A program made the translations under genes and the position numbers. From positions 1-63,129 of the forward strand of contig CBFGJP010000003.1 of NCBI GenBank assembly GCA_965649105.1: 63,129 nucleotides of DNA. The letters run 5' to 3'. Position 1 is the stretch's first letter. Each line of letters begins with the position of its first letter. The notes under the pieces are model-generated. The model had not been told where the DNA came from, searched no databases, and saw only the letters and a list, made by a program, of their open reading frames with translations. This DNA is from a candidate division WOR-3 bacterium. Lineage in GTDB: Bacteria > Hydrothermota > Tepidihabitantia > SM23-42 > JAOAFX01. Below, in pieces: positions 3,078 through 60,676 of the stretch.

Positions 3078-3105
3078 ATTATAGAGAATTTTCTGTAGGT
3101 GTCAA
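3078..3105 (-). promoter_or_regulatory. Sigma70-like promoter, leaderless ligA
   Basis: TTGACA-N16-TATAAT-N6-ATG. Confidence 0.85.
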
Positions 3106-3133
3106 GGTTTTGATTTTAAAACAGAGAAACAAC

Positions 3134-3784
3134 TCAGATATCTGCCTCTTCCATTATCTTCTCACCTGAAGATGTGCCGATGCGGTTGGCACCGGCATTT
3201 ATAAAGGCGAGCGCTGTCTTATAATCCCTTATCCCGCCTGATGCCTTTACCCCGAAATTTGGTCCCACAACCTTCCTCAGCAATTTTACATCCTCAACCC
3301 TTGCCCCTTCTTTAGAAAATCCAGTTGATGTCTTGACAAAATGGGCACCGCGCTCCTTGATGATATTCGCTGAGGCGACCTTCTCATCCTCGGTCAAGAG
3401 GCAGGTCTCAATGATGACCTTTACAATCCTTCCCTGGGCTGTCTCCACAACCGCCTTTATCTCCTTTCCTACATACTTATAATCTTTTGATTTCAACCTG
3501 CCGATATTCATTACCATATCAATCTCATCACAGCCAAGTTTTATAAGTTCTTCAGTCGCATAAACCTTTGCCTTTGTCGTTGATGCACCAAGTGGAAAGC
3601 CGACTACACTACAGACCTTTATCTCTTCAGGTAATTCTTTTCTAATAAACTCAACCCAGGATGGATTAACAACTGCCGAAAAGAATTTATATTTTTTTAC
3701 ACCTGCTAAAAACGCCAAAATATCATTTTTTGTCGCATCGGGTTTTAAAATTGTCTGGTCAATGTACTTATTTATTTCTTTCAT
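3134..3784 (-). CDS. deoC: Deoxyribose-phosphate aldolase
   Basis: IDQTILKP, VVGFPLG, EIDMV, FVKTSTG, VKASGGIR; start re-called at ATG 3784 (MKEINKY). Confidence 0.96.
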   Translation of the reverse strand: MKEINKYIDQTILKPDATKNDILAFLAGVKKYKFFSAVVNPSWVEFIRKELPEEIKVCSVVGFPLGASTTKAKVYATEELIKLGCDEIDMVMNIGRLKSKDYKYVGKEIKAVVETAQGRIVKVIIETCLLTEDEKVASANIIKERGAHFVKTSTGFSKEGARVEDVKLLRKVVGPNFGVKASGGIRDYKTALAFINAGANRIGTSSGEKIMEEADI

Positions 3785-5504
3785 AATCTTCCTGCCTTTC
3801 ATTATATAATGCATCAAATCTTCTTTTAATGGTATAATAAATATAAATCGGCAATAACTCGGATTTCACCTTATTCTTTTTCACCAGCGCTCCTCCCTCT
3901 TTTATTTTTTTCACTCTAAATACATATATCCCTGACCTTGCTTCAAAAATTTTTCTTTCCCCTTTATTCGCCTCAAAAACAGGTTTGGAAAGAGGGTCCA
4001 TCCCATCCGGATATATTTCTTTCTTCAAATTCAATTTTTTTATCTTCTTCACCGAATCCCTCACCGCAGTGCTATCCTTATTCCACTTCACAAATGCATA
4101 TTCAATTATCCGGTGGGGAGGTTCATACAGTCTATCAGAGATATTCAAAATCGTCCTGTTCAAATATTCAAATCCTGCAACATCTGATTTTATTTGTTCC
4201 AGAAAACTACCCTGGTCTAAACCCATTGTTGATAAATCTCTATCGGGATTTAATGATAATGAAAATAGAAATCTTGCAAATTCAAGTTCCTCACCATATC
4301 TTATATATTCCATCCCTTTTTCAATCCACTCCGGTTTTGCCAATTCTTTAAAGAATCCATTTGTATCCTGATTTTGAACTGGCAACTGGGTTAAATCCTC
4401 TAAAATCATCGTGCTATCTAATAGCATACCCAAATCAGCCATTGTATCAAGCGAGGCAAAATCAAAAAATGATACTCCTTTCCCTTTTTCCTGACGTACA
4501 TAATTGATTTCAGTATTTGCCTGCAATTCCATACCCTTCCACAGAAATCCTATCCCCATTATTGTAGAAGGAAAATTATAAAGAGAGAAGTCCAGAAAAT
4601 CCTTAAAAATCTTTGTATCCGTGGTATAGGACATTACCACGGGATAATCGATCAAATCCTGCCATTCCCACCAGTTCTGGGCATACTGGTATGATGCCCT
4701 TGAAGGGCTGGGAAAAACCGCACAGGATATGATACAATCCTTATCAATATCCTTTAGCACCGACCTGACCTGCTCTAAAAAATTATAGATTGTCCTCTGC
4801 CTTTTTTTGTTCTCAGGATAAAAATTATATACAACCCAGCGATTAAAATATTCTAGTCTTGGATATCTAAAAAGTGTGAGCCAGCGCATATCACGATTGC
4901 CCAGCCCGGAAACCAGACCTGCGACAAGCGTATCTTTTATGCCCCAGAAAATACCCGGGAATCTAATAAAATCAAAATGTATCCCATCTATTTTATATTT
5001 TTTTAAAATCTCTTCACAGATTTTTTTTAGAAAATCCTTTACCTCCGCAAGATAGGGATTTATGAATGTCCCTTCCAGCCCGAAATCCTTCTGTTCTTCT
5101 GGTGTATAATCAATCATACTTCTGCCCTTTATATCCCTCAACAACCATTCCGGATGTGTATAATAGATATGCCTTGTGGAATCCGGGAAACTGTCCAGAG
5201 ACCATATCAAAAATGTATTTATCCAGGCATGGACTTTTACATTCTTCTTTTTTGCATATTTGATTATGGAATCAAACGGTTCATAATCGGGCGGTGAATT
5301 TTTGGAAAGATATTGGCTCCTCGGTAATATCTCGGAACGGTAGTATGCAGAACCACTTATCACAACCTGGACATAAAGGTCGGTTATATCCATTCGTTCT
5401 GCAAGGTCCATAATCCTAGGAATGGAATCGGGCACCGCAATTGATAATGCCCTGACCCAGAGGCCTTTTTGAAAACTCAAAAGAAAAGTAAATAATAGTA
5501 GCAT
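3768..5504 (-). CDS. GHL10/DUF187-type glycoside hydrolase-like protein with unknown C-terminal region
   Basis: GLWV, LYVQV, KVHAWIN, IDGIHFDFIRFP, VVMSY motifs. Confidence 0.8.
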   Translation of the reverse strand: MLLLFTFLLSFQKGLWVRALSIAVPDSIPRIMDLAERMDITDLYVQVVISGSAYYRSEILPRSQYLSKNSPPDYEPFDSIIKYAKKKNVKVHAWINTFLIWSLDSFPDSTRHIYYTHPEWLLRDIKGRSMIDYTPEEQKDFGLEGTFINPYLAEVKDFLKKICEEILKKYKIDGIHFDFIRFPGIFWGIKDTLVAGLVSGLGNRDMRWLTLFRYPRLEYFNRWVVYNFYPENKKRQRTIYNFLEQVRSVLKDIDKDCIISCAVFPSPSRASYQYAQNWWEWQDLIDYPVVMSYTTDTKIFKDFLDFSLYNFPSTIMGIGFLWKGMELQANTEINYVRQEKGKGVSFFDFASLDTMADLGMLLDSTMILEDLTQLPVQNQDTNGFFKELAKPEWIEKGMEYIRYGEELEFARFLFSLSLNPDRDLSTMGLDQGSFLEQIKSDVAGFEYLNRTILNISDRLYEPPHRIIEYAFVKWNKDSTAVRDSVKKIKKLNLKKEIYPDGMDPLSKPVFEANKGERKIFEARSGIYVFRVKKIKEGGALVKKNKVKSELLPIYIYYTIKRRFDALYNERQEDYERNK

Positions 5505-5507
5505 CTG

Positions 5508-7139
5508 CTATCTGCCAAATCTCCGGGCTAAATCATCAAGGCTGATCTTTATCACCACCGGTCTTCCATGGGGACAGATAAATGGATTCTCGCAGGCGAA
5601 TAAACGGTCAATGAGATTCTGCATTTCGGCAACCGATAGTTTCTGCCCTGCCTTTATCGCCATCCTGCAGGCAACGACCTTTGCGAGTTCGCTTTGCTGA
5701 TTCATCAACTTACCCAGACTCCCAATCTCGCTGAAAAATCCCTGGAGGTCCTCCCTGGTAACCTTTGTATCCGAAGGGAGGGTATCAATGACCAGGGTCC
5801 GACCGGAAAATTCCTTGAATTCAATGCCGAGTCCTTTTAAATTATCCTTTGTCATTTGGTATATACGATATTCCTCTGGATTGAGCTCTATTGTTATGGG
5901 AAACAATAGATGTTGGGACGGACCACGATTATTCATAATGGATTCGTAAAGTATCCTTTCGTGTGCTACGTGCTGGTCAATGATTATGAGCCCGGTGCTC
6001 GTCTGGGCAAAGATATATGTGTTATGCAACTGCCAGAACTCACCACCCTCACCTGCCGGTGATTTTGTCTTTTCTGAAACCTCAGAATAAGGGATAAATG
6101 CCTCCTGGACAAATCTGGCATCTGCTGCTGGAGAAAAGATTTTCTCTTCAGTGTATTCCTTTTCTGATGTCCTATGAAAGAGTTTCTCCTTTATTCCCTG
6201 CGTCAAGAGATCTATCACATACCTTTCTTCTTTTATCTTCACCTCATTCTTTGTGGGATGGATATTGACATCGAGCATCTGGGGTGGAAGATTTATATTC
6301 AATATATAAATGGGTGGTTCCTTCGGATTCTGATATATTTCAGAGAGCACCCTGGTAATGCGTGGATACCTTACCGGTCTTGAGTTCACATAAAGCATAT
6401 TTAAATTAAACCTTTCACCGATATTAAAGGGTGATATAAAGCCATAAAAATTTATCTCTCCTACATCCAGTTCAAATAATAGCAACCTCTCAACCAAGCG
6501 GAGAGGATAGATTTGATATAACCGGGATTTTAAATCCTTTGTTTGCGGCAGATTCAAGATATTTCTACTTTCCTCATTTAAAACGAAATGAACCCCGGGA
6601 GCAATGATAGCATATGTCTTTACCAGGTCTATTATGAGACGGCGCTCATATTCATCTGATTTTAAAAACTTCCTTCGTGCAGGGAGGTTGTAAAAGAGTT
6701 CTGATACCTTCACCCTTGTACCCCTTTCCCGATAGGTATCAATGACCTGTTTTACCTTTCCTTCTTCAACTATTATCTTTGTTCCTTCCGTCCCATCAAA
6801 GGTCTCAAGTTCAAAATGGGATACTTGGGCAATGCTCGCCAGCGCTTCACCTCGAAATCCGAAGGTGTTTATCTTCTCAATATCCTCAATATGTTCAATC
6901 TTACTCGTTGCATACCTTTCTATTGATAAAAGTGCATCTGCACGAGACATCCCGGTCCCGTCATCATTGACAAGACATTTTGATTTGCCCCCTGATTCAA
7001 TCTCAATCTCGATCCTCTTTGCATCCGCATCAAGGGCATTCTCAATTAGTTCCTTTATCACTGAGGCGGGTCTGATTATGACCTCACCCGCGGCAATTTT
7101 TGAACGAACATCCTCTGAAAGCAATTTTATCTTCGGCAC
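5508..7139 (-). CDS. mutL: DNA mismatch repair protein MutL
   Basis: IAAGEVI, KELIENALDA, GFRGEALASI, DQHVAHER, ACR, CPHGRP; start re-called at GTG 7139. Confidence 0.97.
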   Translation of the reverse strand: MPKIKLLSEDVRSKIAAGEVIIRPASVIKELIENALDADAKRIEIEIESGGKSKCLVNDDGTGMSRADALLSIERYATSKIEHIEDIEKINTFGFRGEALASIAQVSHFELETFDGTEGTKIIVEEGKVKQVIDTYRERGTRVKVSELFYNLPARRKFLKSDEYERRLIIDLVKTYAIIAPGVHFVLNEESRNILNLPQTKDLKSRLYQIYPLRLVERLLLFELDVGEINFYGFISPFNIGERFNLNMLYVNSRPVRYPRITRVLSEIYQNPKEPPIYILNINLPPQMLDVNIHPTKNEVKIKEERYVIDLLTQGIKEKLFHRTSEKEYTEEKIFSPAADARFVQEAFIPYSEVSEKTKSPAGEGGEFWQLHNTYIFAQTSTGLIIIDQHVAHERILYESIMNNRGPSQHLLFPITIELNPEEYRIYQMTKDNLKGLGIEFKEFSGRTLVIDTLPSDTKVTREDLQGFFSEIGSLGKLMNQQSELAKVVACRMAIKAGQKLSVAEMQNLIDRLFACENPFICPHGRPVVIKISLDDLARRFGR

Positions 7140-7144
7140 AACAT

Positions 7145-60444: not shown

Positions 60445-60445
60445 T

Positions 60446-60543
60446 GGAAGTTGGGTGAGGAAGTGGGTATGGAGGTTGGAGGTTAGAAGTTGGGTGAAGA
60501 AATGGGTTTGGAATTTAGAAGTGGGAAGATGGATGTGGGAAAT
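60446..60543 (+). repeat. G-rich degenerate heptamer array after the C25-2 stop
   Basis: ggaagtt...ggaggtt ggaggtt agaagtt...ggaattt agaagtg. Confidence 0.7.
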
Positions 60544-60610
60544 TGAAACCTATAGGTCAATAAACGATGGACGATACGGGCAGCGAAACTGTATAACGAC
60601 AGACGATTCT

Positions 60611-60634
60611 GTAGGAGCGGCTTCCAAGCCGCGA
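60611..60634 (+). repeat. GTAG-family REP-like palindrome
   Basis: GTAG GA GCGGCTT CC AAGCCGC GA. Confidence 0.75.
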
Positions 60635-60648
60635 AAGGTTTTTCCCCC

Positions 60649-60676
60649 TTGACTTAAGTCTAAGTTGGATTATAAT
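60649..60676 (+). promoter_or_regulatory. Sigma70-like promoter of C25-3
   Basis: TTGACT-N16-TATAAT, then SD AAGGAG. Confidence 0.88.

What the first reader, a model, noticed from the sequence alone, without database searches (positions are those of the whole stretch)
3078..60676. All 17 recognisable sigma70-like promoters have a 16-bp spacer
Seen: TTGAC(A/T) (once TTGAAC)-N16-TA(T/A)(A/T)(A/C)T before ligA, mutL, sucC, lepB, the S8 peptidase, the Lrp-like gene, hdrC, the reductase, rpmJ, rpsH, tRNA-Val, the ncRNA, tRNA(CAT), ribBA, nusB, pgsB and C25-3. I counted each spacer by hand and found no 17-bp example. Known: the E. coli sigma70 optimum is 17 bp. Inference: this lineage's holoenzyme has a shifted -35/-10 geometry, possibly through an altered sigma region 3-4 or alpha subunit.
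Basis: partly seen in the sequence, partly recalled or inferred. Interest (0 to 1): 0.7.

Follow-up and report, generated by a model that had tools for sequence, protein, structure and literature searches.

The report
WOR-3 promoters spaced 16 bp
In this uncultured bacterium of the candidate phylum WOR-3, and in nine other WOR-3 genomes, textbook TTGACA/TATAAT promoters sit 16 bp apart, not the 17 bp held to be general in bacteria, so the spacing rule is not quite universal.

Summary
In the window, TTGAC(A/T)-Nx-TA(T/A)(A/T)(A/C)T occurs 18 times at x=16 and 0-4 times at every other x from 12 to 22. Six sites are perfect TTGACA-N16-TATAAT. An unbiased best-site scan of upstream regions puts all 10 top sites at N16.

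The same script on a Bacillus phage control peaks at 17. The window belongs to candidate division WOR-3. Across about 251 kb from 10 WOR-3 genomes, near-consensus sites number 40 at N16 and 9 at N17, against a background of 1-5.

Orthologous promoters (rpsH, rpmJ, tRNA-Met) keep the hexamers and the exact 16-bp length while the spacer sequence diverges. The TG dinucleotide peaks at -16/-15 rather than the usual -15/-14. The distance from the -10 to the start codon of leaderless genes looks normal.

The alpha-subunit idea is not supported. Two rivals remain: selection for a sub-optimal spacer, and less negatively supercoiled DNA. This is a new variant of a known kind and of moderate interest.

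The parts
3078..3105 (-). ligA promoter, TTGACA-N16-TATAAT. The ATG lies 6 nt after the -10, so the mRNA is probably leaderless.
7145..7172 (-). mutL promoter, TTGACT-N16-TAAAAT. A GTG lies 5 nt after the -10.
7225..7252 (+). sucC promoter, TTGACT-N16-TATAAT. The gene is SD-led (AGGAGG) with its start at 7277.
11680..11707 (-). Signal peptidase I (S26, lepB) promoter, TTGACT-N16-TATAAT. The ATG lies 6 nt after the -10.
11894..11921 (+). S8 peptidase promoter, TTGACT-N16-TATTAT. The peptidase carries a T9SS C-terminal sorting tail.
19052..19079 (-). A GTG lies 5 nt after the -10.
23007..23034 (-). Promoter of the hdrC-like 4Fe-4S protein, TTGACA-N16-TATAAT. The ATG lies 8 nt after the -10.
24174..24201 (-). 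Promoter of the FAD-dependent (geranylgeranyl-type) reductase, TTGACT-N16-TATAAT. The ATG lies 9 nt after the -10.
28576..28603 (-). rpmJ promoter, TTGACT-N16-TAAACT. Its orthologues are N16 in 8 WOR-3 genomes although the spacer sequences differ.
34066..34093 (-). rpsH promoter, TTGACT-N16-TATAAT. Its orthologues are N16 in 9 WOR-3 genomes. A conserved CTATG(T/G)T follows 6 nt after the -10.
36751..36778 (-). tRNA-Val promoter, perfect TTGACA-N16-TATAAT. The mature tRNA 5' end lies 12 nt after the -10.
36782..36809 (+). ncRNA promoter, perfect TTGACA-N16-TATAAT. It is divergent from the tRNA-Val promoter, with the two -35 hexamers 3 bp apart. Its orthologue in L003 and L004 is N17.
36816..36905 (+). 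The roughly 90-nt hairpin ncRNA transcribed from the promoter above. Its apical loop reads CUCCCUCC and a U-run follows. It matches no Rfam family.
37070..37097 (+). tRNA-Met (CAT) promoter, perfect TTGACA-N16-TATAAT. The four orthologues have unrelated spacer sequences, all exactly 16 bp long.
39692..39719 (+). ribBA promoter, TTGACT-N16-TAAAAT. The ATG lies 6 nt after the -10.
41432..41459 (+). nusB candidate promoter, TTGAAC-N16-TAAAAT. With 3 mismatches it is weak and is not significant on its own.
46990..47017 (+). pgsB-like (Mur ligase) promoter, TTGACA-N16-TATACT. A GTG lies 5 nt after the -10.
52525..52552 (+). It lies upstream of the first C25 peptidase (52568-56065).
60649..60676 (+). 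Promoter of the third C25 peptidase, TTGACT-N16-TATAAT. The gene is SD-led.
619..646 (+). TTGACA-N16-TAAAAT inside the 3' end of ORF 288-656. Its function is uncertain and it may be a chance match.
39018..39046 (+). Candidate 17-bp site, TTGACT-N17-TACAAT, 33 nt before the ATG at 39080. It lies in conserved coding sequence, so its conservation says nothing about promoter function.
25943..27019 (-). rpoA, 358 aa, with ordinary NTD, insert and CTD domains. It carries a clade-specific 31-residue linker insertion.

Best explanation
These are genuine housekeeping promoters of a bacterium of candidate division WOR-3. In this phylum, RNA polymerase with its primary sigma factor reads the standard TTGACA (-35) and TATAAT (-10) hexamers. 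The preferred gap between them is 16 bp rather than 17. A 17-bp gap is used in roughly one promoter in five or six in other WOR-3 clades and hardly at all in the window's clade. Gaps of 15 and 18 bp are not used above background.

Shown here:
- the spacer distribution;
- its statistical weight;
- its phylum-wide extent;
- its conservation at orthologous promoters whose spacer sequence has diverged;
- the promoters' placement in front of genes, often at leaderless distance from the start codon.

Inferred: the cause is intrinsic to the holoenzyme. The DNA-reading surfaces of sigma domain 2 and domain 4 would sit about one base pair closer together (about 3.4 Angstrom and 34 degrees of twist) than in E. 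coli or Bacillus enzymes. The likely source is a difference in sigma region 3, the 3.2 linker, or the beta-flap that positions sigma domain 4.

My confidence that the 16-bp mode is a real, selected, lineage-wide property is about 0.9. The figure below is for the protein-geometry cause.
For: Counts and chance.
- The window has 18 strict sites at N16 against 0-4 at each other spacer.
- It has 14 sites with at most 1 mismatch, against 0.67 expected from shuffles.
- All 10 top-scoring upstream regions are N16 and intragenic controls give none.
- The tool's own scan agrees.

Control. The same script on Bacillus phage SPO1 (40.8% GC) gives 7 sites at N17 and 0 at N16. The Fisher test against WOR-3 gives p = 1e-4.

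Lineage. The best RpoA hits are named candidate division WOR-3.

Phylum-wide extent. Ten non-redundant genomes totalling 250,816 bp give, for N13 to N21, 4, 3, 1, 40, 9, 4, 3, 5, 5. Leaving out the window gives 26 at N16 and 7 at N17.

Selection on length.
- The rpsH promoter is N16 in 9 genomes and the rpmJ promoter in 8, with diverged spacers.
- The four tRNA-Met promoter orthologues have unrelated 16-bp spacers.

Geometry.
- TG peaks at -16/-15 in 9 of 32 promoters, Bonferroni p = 5e-5, and appears at -15/-14 in only 2 of 32. The SPO1 control peaks at -15/-14. A change in DNA twist cannot move a contact that lies 3-4 bp from the -10.
- Start codons of leaderless genes lie 5-6 nt after the -10, so the -10-to-start geometry looks normal and the shift lies upstream.

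Literature. A 17-bp spacer is optimal in E. coli and is the dominant spacer length across the 49 species of PMC12641261. It is the most frequent length in E. coli in PMC9303308.
Against: - No rpoD, rpoB or rpoC of the lineage could be examined, so no protein feature has been tied to the shift.
- There are no transcription start site data. Promoter function and start sites are inferred from sequence alone.
- Natural promoter distributions reflect selection as well as enzyme optimum. In E. coli, 16-bp promoters such as tac work well, and rrn P1 uses a 16-bp spacer (my own knowledge).
- The TG shift rests on 9 of 32 sites. It could be a DNA-flexibility feature rather than a sigma contact.
- About 130 of the 251 kb surveyed is the same ribosomal-protein neighbourhood in different genomes, so the samples are not fully independent.
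- The survey is not genome-wide.
Confidence: 0.5

Rival explanations
1. Kinetic tuning by selection. The WOR-3 enzyme has the ordinary 17-bp optimum. Promoters built from near-consensus hexamers are selected to carry a slightly sub-optimal 16-bp spacer. This would keep RNA polymerase from binding too tightly, so that promoter escape stays fast and open complexes stay regulatable.
For: - WOR-3 promoters are unusually close to consensus: 6 perfect sites in 63 kb and 16 perfect N16 sites in 251 kb.
- From my own knowledge, E. coli rrn P1 promoters use 16-bp spacers, and full-consensus 17-bp promoters are limited by escape. PMC9303308 notes that 16-nt spacers behave as a special class in E. coli.
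Against: - The N16 rule covers all kinds of genes, including ligA, mutL, peptidases and riboflavin synthesis, not only stable-RNA genes.
- Discriminators are A/T-rich, not the G+C-rich stringent type.
- Weaker upstream sites (scores of 9-10 out of 12) show no compensating excess at N17.
- Perfect-consensus N17 promoters do exist in WOR-3: L048 at 11683, L050 at 12286 and L052 at 2831. So consensus hexamers with a 17-bp spacer are not forbidden.
- This idea does not explain the displaced TG.
Confidence: 0.2
2. DNA topology. The enzyme is ordinary, but WOR-3 chromosomes are less negatively supercoiled than those of E. coli. The spacer is then more tightly twisted, and 16 bp brings the two hexamers into the same angular register that 17 bp gives in E. 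coli.
For: - The torsional model of PMC9303308 predicts that short spacers are favoured on relaxed DNA.
- That model is set so that 17 nt is optimal at a superhelical density of -0.06. My own arithmetic on it gives 17 x 0.94 = 15.98 relaxed-equivalent bp, so 16 bp would be optimal near zero superhelicity.
- Close relatives come from a hot-spring MAG series. Thermophiles often carry reverse gyrase (my own knowledge).
Against: - The N16 mode is also seen in WOR-3 genomes named RBG_13_43_14 and SM23_42. From my own knowledge these come from an aquifer and from estuary sediment, which are cool habitats. It is also seen in three complete genomes.
- The composition-based temperature estimate did not discriminate between loci.
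- Only part of a linking-number change goes into twist in vivo, so a full 1-bp shift would need an extreme state.
- Warming untwists DNA, which is the wrong direction.
- Twist cannot displace the TG element by 1 bp when it lies 3-4 bp from the -10.
- No topoisomerase gene was available to check.
Confidence: 0.15
3. An altered alpha subunit (RpoA) sets the shorter spacing.
For: RpoA of the window's clade has a 31-residue insertion in the NTD-CTD linker.
Against: - From established knowledge, alpha contacts UP elements and activators upstream of the -35 and does not position sigma domains 2 and 4.
- WOR-3 members with the short 327-aa RpoA show the same N16 mode. L041 has 7 sites at N16 and 1 at N17. 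L050 has 4 and 1. L053 has 5 and 0.
- The domain content of RpoA is ordinary.
Confidence: 0.02
4. Chance or hand-search bias. The reader saw only the 16-bp cases.
For: None found.
Against: The regular-expression count over all spacers, the dinucleotide shuffles, the per-region best-site scan, the independent tool scan and the SPO1 control all argue against it.
Confidence: 0.01

Closest known systems
Canonical sigma70 / sigmaA housekeeping promoters (E. coli, B. subtilis)
   Same: - The same two hexamers, TTGACA and TATAAT.
- The same placement upstream of genes.
- A similar -10-to-start distance, inferred here from leaderless start codons.
- An A/T-rich spacer with T-rich positions near -17/-16.
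   Different: - The modal spacer is 16 bp, not 17. In the window's clade it is almost exclusively 16.
- Spacers of 15 and 18 bp are not used above background, so the distribution is narrow and lopsided (16 far more than 17) rather than symmetric about 17.
- TG is enriched at -16/-15, and secondarily at -14/-13, instead of -15/-14.
- The hexamers are far closer to consensus than in E. coli.
Synthetic tac promoter (TTGACA-N16-TATAAT), from my own knowledge
   Same: Identical architecture: consensus hexamers with a 16-bp spacer. It shows that such a promoter is strong even for an enzyme whose optimum is 17 bp.
   Different: tac is a laboratory hybrid. Here the same design is the natural default of a whole phylum.
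E. coli rrn P1-type stringent promoters with 16-bp spacers, from my own knowledge
   Same: A 16-bp spacer in front of stable-RNA and translation genes. The tRNA-Val, tRNA-Met, rpsH and rpmJ promoters here are N16.
   Different: - There is no G+C-rich discriminator; positions -6 to -1 are A/T-rich.
- The -35 hexamer is consensus rather than degenerate.
- The rule applies to all gene classes.
Bacteroidota sigma-ABfr promoters (-33 TTTG / -7 TAnnTTTG)
   Same: - The same superphylum, judged by the type IX secretion tails on secreted proteins.
- I recall that a TTG-N19-TAnnTTTG spacing is optimal in Flavobacterium, which would equal TTGACA-N16-TA. That paper (PMC1951883) was not held, so this is a lead and not a test.
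   Different: - The WOR-3 motifs are the classical hexamers.
- TAnnTTTG shows no excess and no spacing peak in WOR-3 DNA.
- PMC7366714 describes the Bacteroides spacer as variable in length.

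Membership tests
Group-1 sigma (sigma70/sigmaA) -35/-10 promoter | -35 hexamer close to TTGACA | tested here: met
After TTG was fixed by the selection, the composition profile shows A at 94% and C at 80% at hexamer positions 4 and 5.
Group-1 sigma (sigma70/sigmaA) -35/-10 promoter | -10 hexamer close to TATAAT | tested here: met
   At hexamer positions 3 to 5 the profile shows T at 88%, A at 94% and A at 84%. There are 6 perfect TTGACA-N16-TATAAT sites in the window.
Group-1 sigma (sigma70/sigmaA) -35/-10 promoter | Spacer within the functional range of 15-19 bp | tested here: met
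   The spacer is 16 bp, with 17 bp as a minor class.
Group-1 sigma (sigma70/sigmaA) -35/-10 promoter | Modal or optimal spacer of 17 bp | tested here: not met
   The mode is 16: 40 sites at N16 against 9 at N17 in 251 kb of WOR-3 DNA. The SPO1 control gives 0 at N16 and 7 at N17.
Group-1 sigma (sigma70/sigmaA) -35/-10 promoter | Sites lie upstream of genes and point towards them | tested here: met
   Fifteen of the 19 sites with at most 2 mismatches precede a gene, a tRNA or the ncRNA. Intragenic controls give no high-scoring sites.
Group-1 sigma (sigma70/sigmaA) -35/-10 promoter | Transcription starts about 6-8 nt after the -10 | tested here: inconclusive
   There are no 5'-end data. As a proxy, 8 genes have their start codon 5-9 nt after the -10 (6 of them at 5-6 nt), as expected for leaderless mRNAs. 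The tRNA-Val 5' end lies 12 nt after the -10.
Group-1 sigma (sigma70/sigmaA) -35/-10 promoter | Extended -10 TGn with T at -15 and G at -14 | tested here: not met
   TG starts at -15 in 2 of 32 promoters, at -16 in 9 of 32 and at -14 in 4 of 32. The SPO1 control shows 5 of 7 at -15. The tool's TG column reads 'no' for every listed site scoring at least 10 of 12.
Group-1 sigma (sigma70/sigmaA) -35/-10 promoter | Recognised by the primary sigma factor (RpoD) | not testable with these tools
   No rpoD lies in the window or in any fetched locus. Biochemistry is required.
Stringent rrn P1-type 16-bp promoter | G+C-rich discriminator between the -10 and the start | tested here: not met
   Positions -6 to -1 have 24-47% G+C, and A or T is the commonest base at every position.
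Stringent rrn P1-type 16-bp promoter | Confined to stable-RNA and translation genes | tested here: not met
   ligA, mutL, sucC, lepB, the peptidases, ribBA and the pgsB-like gene also have N16 promoters.
Bacteroidota sigma-ABfr -33/-7 promoter | TAnnTTTG at -7 with TTTG at about -33 | tested here: not met
   TTG-Nx-TAnnTTTG shows no spacing peak in WOR-3 DNA, and the density of TAnnTTTG is 0.4-1.2 per kb.
Candidate division WOR-3 (lineage assignment) | Closest homologues of a conserved marker are named WOR-3 | tested here: met
   Among the 120 best RpoA hits (63-93% identity), every one that carries an organism name is called candidate division WOR-3 or simply 'bacterium'. The ribosomal-protein neighbourhood is syntenic.

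The most novel reading that the evidence does not exclude
WOR-3 RNA polymerase holoenzyme has a contracted sigma domain 2 to domain 4 geometry, about 1 bp shorter, together with a displaced extended -10 contact (TG at -16/-15). That would make it a natural exception to the 17-bp rule treated as general for bacterial primary sigma factors. The TTG-N19-TA distance may be ancestral to the FCB superphylum and so form a bridge to the odd -33/-7 promoters of Bacteroidota.
Probability: 0.3. Interest if true: 0.7.

Novelty: new variant of a known kind. Interest (0 to 1): 0.5.

Why it matters
The 17 +/- 1 bp spacer is built into nearly every bacterial promoter predictor. A recent survey of 49 species (PMC12641261) treats 17 bp as the dominant spacer length. 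A whole, uncultured phylum with a mode at 16 bp matters in three ways.

- It would be mis-scored by those predictors. Genome annotation and metatranscriptome reading for WOR-3 should use N16.
- It offers a natural experiment on what sets the spacer optimum: sigma linker and beta-flap geometry, DNA superhelicity, or selection.
- Its very clean, near-consensus promoters, many driving leaderless mRNAs, make start sites and operon structure predictable from sequence alone in organisms that cannot be grown.

If the cause is structural, it could also explain how the divergent Bacteroidota promoter architecture arose.

Tried and rejected
- Looking up the window's own ligA in the contig index found nothing on record.
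- Retrieving RpoD of the lineage failed. A six-frame motif scan of the window and all 53 loci found no primary sigma.
- The 34 distant RecJ-homologue loci (L006-L039) show no excess of TTGACA/TATAAT sites at any spacer and no TTG-Nx-TAnnTTTG peak. They served neither as a 17-bp control nor as a test of Bacteroidota geometry.
- The IVYWREL estimate of growth temperature gave 47-72 C for all WOR-3 loci and 43 C for the Bacillus phage. It was too noisy in 20-kb samples to separate thermophiles from mesophiles, so it was dropped.
- Rfam at gathering and at E<1 gave no family for the ncRNA.
- Literature searches found no paper on WOR-3 promoters and none on a lineage with a 16-bp mode. Nothing useful was found on reverse gyrase in WOR-3.
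- Chen et al. 2007, on the optimal Flavobacterium spacing, is not held.
- The promoters cannot be copies of a repeat or a mobile element, because their spacers and flanks are unrelated in sequence.

Full report
**Observation**

It occurs 18 times at x=16, and 0, 1, 0, 1, 1, 4, 1, 1, 1, 1 times at x = 12-15 and 17-22.

Sites with at most one mismatch to TTGACA/TATAAT number 14 at N16 and 0-3 at every other spacer from 13 to 21. Six sites are perfect and all six are N16. Thirty dinucleotide-preserving shuffles give a mean of 0.67 and a maximum of 2 at N16. The Poisson probability of 14 or more is about 2e-14.

The seventeenth (nusB, TTGAAC...TAAAAT, 41432-41459) has three mismatches and carries no statistical weight alone. 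Two N16 matches were missed:
- 52525-52552, in front of the first of three C25 peptidase genes.
- 619-646, inside an ORF.

**An unbiased test**

I built a simple gene model of 65 ORFs covering 90% of the window. For each upstream region I took the best-scoring pair of hexamers at any spacer from 13 to 21.
- All 10 regions scoring at least 11 of 12 are N16.
- At a score of at least 10, N16 has 12.8 regions, against 3.0 at N17 and 2.0 at N18.
- Equal-sized intragenic controls give nothing at 11 or above, and about 1 per spacer at 10.

The tool's own sigma-70 scan of 20-40 kb ranks five intergenic N16 sites and two intragenic N17 sites at 11 or above. Hand-search bias is therefore excluded.

**Positive control**

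The identical script was run on the first 50 kb of Bacillus phage SPO1 (L040, 40.8% G+C). This stretch holds the host-takeover genes, whose early promoters I take, from my own knowledge, to be read by host sigma-A. It gives 7 sites with at most 1 mismatch at N17 and none at N16, and 27 at N17 with at most 2 mismatches. The counting convention is therefore right, and a standard organism gives 17. The Fisher test of the window (14 at N16, 2 at N17) against SPO1 (0 and 7) gives p = 1.5e-4.

**Which organism**

- The genome collection holds three relatives with about 80% protein identity to the RecJ-like gene at 37596-39092. All are labelled only 'bacterium'; one belongs to a Kamchatka MAG series.
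- The 120 best homologues of the window's RpoA (25943-27019, minus strand) have 63-93% identity. Every one that carries an organism name is called candidate division WOR-3 or simply 'bacterium'.
- Secreted peptidases carry type IX secretion C-terminal sorting domains, as expected for the FCB superphylum.

**How far the rule extends**

The close relatives L001-L004 and L045 show the same N16 excess at orthologous loci. Nine further WOR-3 genomes were sampled at the ribosomal-protein/rpoA locus with 10-kb flanks: L041, L043 and L047-L053. Three of them are complete chromosomes: CP070664.1, CP070686.1 and CP070834.1.

| Sample | N13 | N14 | N15 | N16 | N17 | N18 | N19 | N20 | N21 |
|---|---|---|---|---|---|---|---|---|---|
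| Ten non-redundant genomes, 250,816 bp | 4 | 3 | 1 | 40 | 9 | 4 | 3 | 5 | 5 |
| The same without the window | 3 | 2 | 1 | 26 | 7 | 4 | 1 | 3 | 2 |

These are sites with at most 1 mismatch. The mode at 16 is therefore a trait of the phylum.

It is nearly exclusive in the window's clade. In more distant members, N17 promoters occur, including perfect TTGACA-N17-TATAAT at L048 11683, L050 12286 and L052 2831. Even in the window's clade, one orthologue of the ncRNA promoter (identical in L003 and L004) has gained a T in a T-run and is N17. So 17 bp is tolerated. Spacers of 15 and 18 bp are not above background.

**Selection on length**

- The tRNA-Met promoter has perfect hexamers in the window and in L001-L003. 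The four 16-bp spacers are unrelated in sequence.
- The rpsH promoter is N16 in nine genomes.
- The rpmJ promoter is N16 in eight genomes.
- In both cases the spacers have diverged although RpoA identity falls to about 65%.

Constant length with free sequence is what purifying selection on spacing predicts.

**Anatomy**

A composition profile of the N16 sites from seven of the genomes was built from 51 sites with at most 2 mismatches and with TTG and TAnnnT required. It shows only the two hexamers, a weak C just 5' of the -35, an A/T-rich spacer with T at -17 (61%) and at -16 (71%), and an A/T-rich discriminator.

The TG dinucleotide is not at the classical -15/-14 position, where only 2 of 32 sites with at most 1 mismatch have it. 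It peaks at -16/-15 (9 of 32, Bonferroni-corrected p = 5e-5), with a second smaller peak at -14/-13. In the SPO1 control it peaks at -15/-14, in 5 of 7 and in 12 of 27 sites.

Eight window promoters lie 5-9 nt from the start codon of the gene they serve, and six of these lie at 5-6 nt. This is the distance expected if transcription begins at the start codon. The -10-to-start distance therefore looks ordinary, and the difference lies upstream of the -10.

**Mechanism**

Three explanations fit a natural 16-bp mode.

In its favour:
- the narrow and lopsided distribution (16 far more than 17, with 15 and 18 at about background);
- its constancy across the WOR-3 genomes sampled, which by their names and, from my own knowledge, their sources come from different habitats;
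- the displaced TG, which no change of DNA twist could produce at 3-4 bp from the -10.

Against it: no sigma, beta or beta-prime sequence of the lineage could be obtained. There are also no biochemical or 5'-end data.

(b) Selection for a slightly sub-optimal spacer in promoters with near-consensus hexamers. E. coli precedents are rrn P1 and tac, both from my own knowledge. Against it:
- the rule covers every gene class;
- the discriminators are A/T-rich;
- weaker promoters show no compensating N17 excess;
- perfect N17 promoters exist in the phylum.

(c) Less negative supercoiling. The torsional model of PMC9303308 predicts that short spacers do best on relaxed DNA. With its setting (17 nt optimal at a superhelical density of -0.06), my arithmetic gives 17 x 0.94 = 15.98, so 16 bp would be optimal near zero. 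Against it:
- the mode is present in WOR-3 genomes that, to my knowledge, come from cool habitats (RBG_13_43_14 and SM23_42-like);
- only part of supercoiling is twist;
- the TG displacement is unexplained.

I put (a) at 0.5, (b) at 0.2 and (c) at 0.15.

The alpha-subunit suggestion fails:
- RpoA has ordinary domains.
- Its 31-residue linker insertion is confined to the window's clade.
- WOR-3 members with the short RpoA have the same N16 mode.

**Comparison with what is known**

The elements are those of ordinary sigma70/sigmaA promoters. Only the modal spacer and the TG position depart.
- A 17-bp spacer is the optimum measured in E. coli and the dominant spacer length across the 49 species analysed in PMC12641261. 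That survey fitted an E. coli-trained model and included no WOR-3.
- The architecture equals the synthetic tac promoter (my own knowledge).
- It is not the stringent rrn P1 type, because there is no G+C-rich discriminator.
- It is not the Bacteroidota -33/-7 type, because TAnnTTTG shows no signal.
- I recall that TTG-N19-TAnnTTTG is optimal in Flavobacterium, which would equal TTGACA-N16-TA. That paper was not available, and the distant loci on hand gave no spacing peak. It stays a lead.
- No paper on WOR-3 promoters, and none on any lineage with a 16-bp mode, was found.

**Verdict**

The lineage-specific shift is real, its protein cause is plausible but untested, and alpha is unlikely. It is a new variant of a known kind and of moderate interest (0.5). 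The decisive work is a genome-wide count and an RpoD/RpoB comparison in the three complete WOR-3 genomes, 5'-end mapping, and an in vitro spacer series on relaxed and supercoiled templates.

Noticed in passing
window 3078-3105, 7145-7172, 11680-11707, 19052-19079, 23007-23034, 24174-24201, 39692-39719, 46990-47017: Eight of the strong promoters end 5-9 nt before the start codon, six of them at 5-6 nt, with no room for a Shine-Dalgarno sequence. A large share of WOR-3 mRNAs therefore appear to be leaderless. Other genes (sucC, rpmJ, S8, C25-3) have clear AGGAGG-type leaders. The same pattern appears in other WOR-3 loci, for example L041 at 1529, L043 at 2678 and L050 at 1732 and 18280.
   Followed up: partly
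It is conserved in five relatives and has one compensatory pair. Its apical loop, CUCCCUCC, is complementary to Shine-Dalgarno sequences (GGAGG). It matches no Rfam family even at E<1, and it lacks the SRP GGAA-loop motifs.
   Followed up: partly
window 36751-36809: The tRNA-Val and ncRNA promoters are back to back on opposite strands. Both are perfect consensus. Their -35 hexamers lie 3 bp apart and form the palindrome TGTCAATATTTGACA.
   Followed up: no
window 25943-27019 (-), RpoA residues about 233-263: RpoA of the window's clade (354-358 aa) carries a 31-residue insertion in the linker between the N- and C-terminal domains. Other WOR-3 RpoA proteins (327 aa) lack it. It does not track the 16-bp rule.
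   Followed up: partly
window 33994-34093 (-); L041 2782, L043 2805, L047 2851, L048 2741, L049 2862: In WOR-3 the spc-type ribosomal-protein operon starts at rpsH, which has its own promoter behind unrelated genes. A conserved CTATG(T/G)T lies exactly 6 nt after the -10 in nine genomes. It may be a start site or leader signal, or a site for S8 autoregulation.
   Followed up: no
N16 promoters in the window and in L041-L050, positions -17 to -13: TG is enriched at -16/-15 and at -14/-13 (often as TGTG abutting TATAAT, or as TTGnn) and is nearly absent at the classical -15/-14. The two WOR-3 N17 promoters that have a TG carry it at -15/-14.
   Followed up: partly
window 39018-39046 (+): TTGACT-N17-TACAAT lies 33 nt before the ATG of the small GTPase-like gene at 39080. 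It is conserved in L001-L003 but sits inside invariant codons of the RecJ-like gene. It may be an internal 17-bp promoter or merely a by-product of the coding sequence.
   Followed up: partly
window 52568-56065, 57403-60444, 60711-63128 (+): Three paralogous peptidase C25 (gingipain-family) genes lie in a row. An intervening BNR-repeat protein sits between them. Several of these proteins carry FlgD-Ig and type IX secretion sorting domains. The first and third C25 genes have their own N16 promoters.
   Followed up: no
window 28540-28575 (-) and orthologues: rpmJ (L36) uses a TTG or GTG start codon preceded by AAGGAG in all eight WOR-3 genomes examined.
   Followed up: no
L041 1107, L047 2390, L049 2411: Orthologous promoters of an ArsR-family (HTH_5) gene are N16. 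They carry a conserved inverted repeat (CATAT...ATATG) spanning the spacer and the start region, which is probably the repressor's operator.
   Followed up: no
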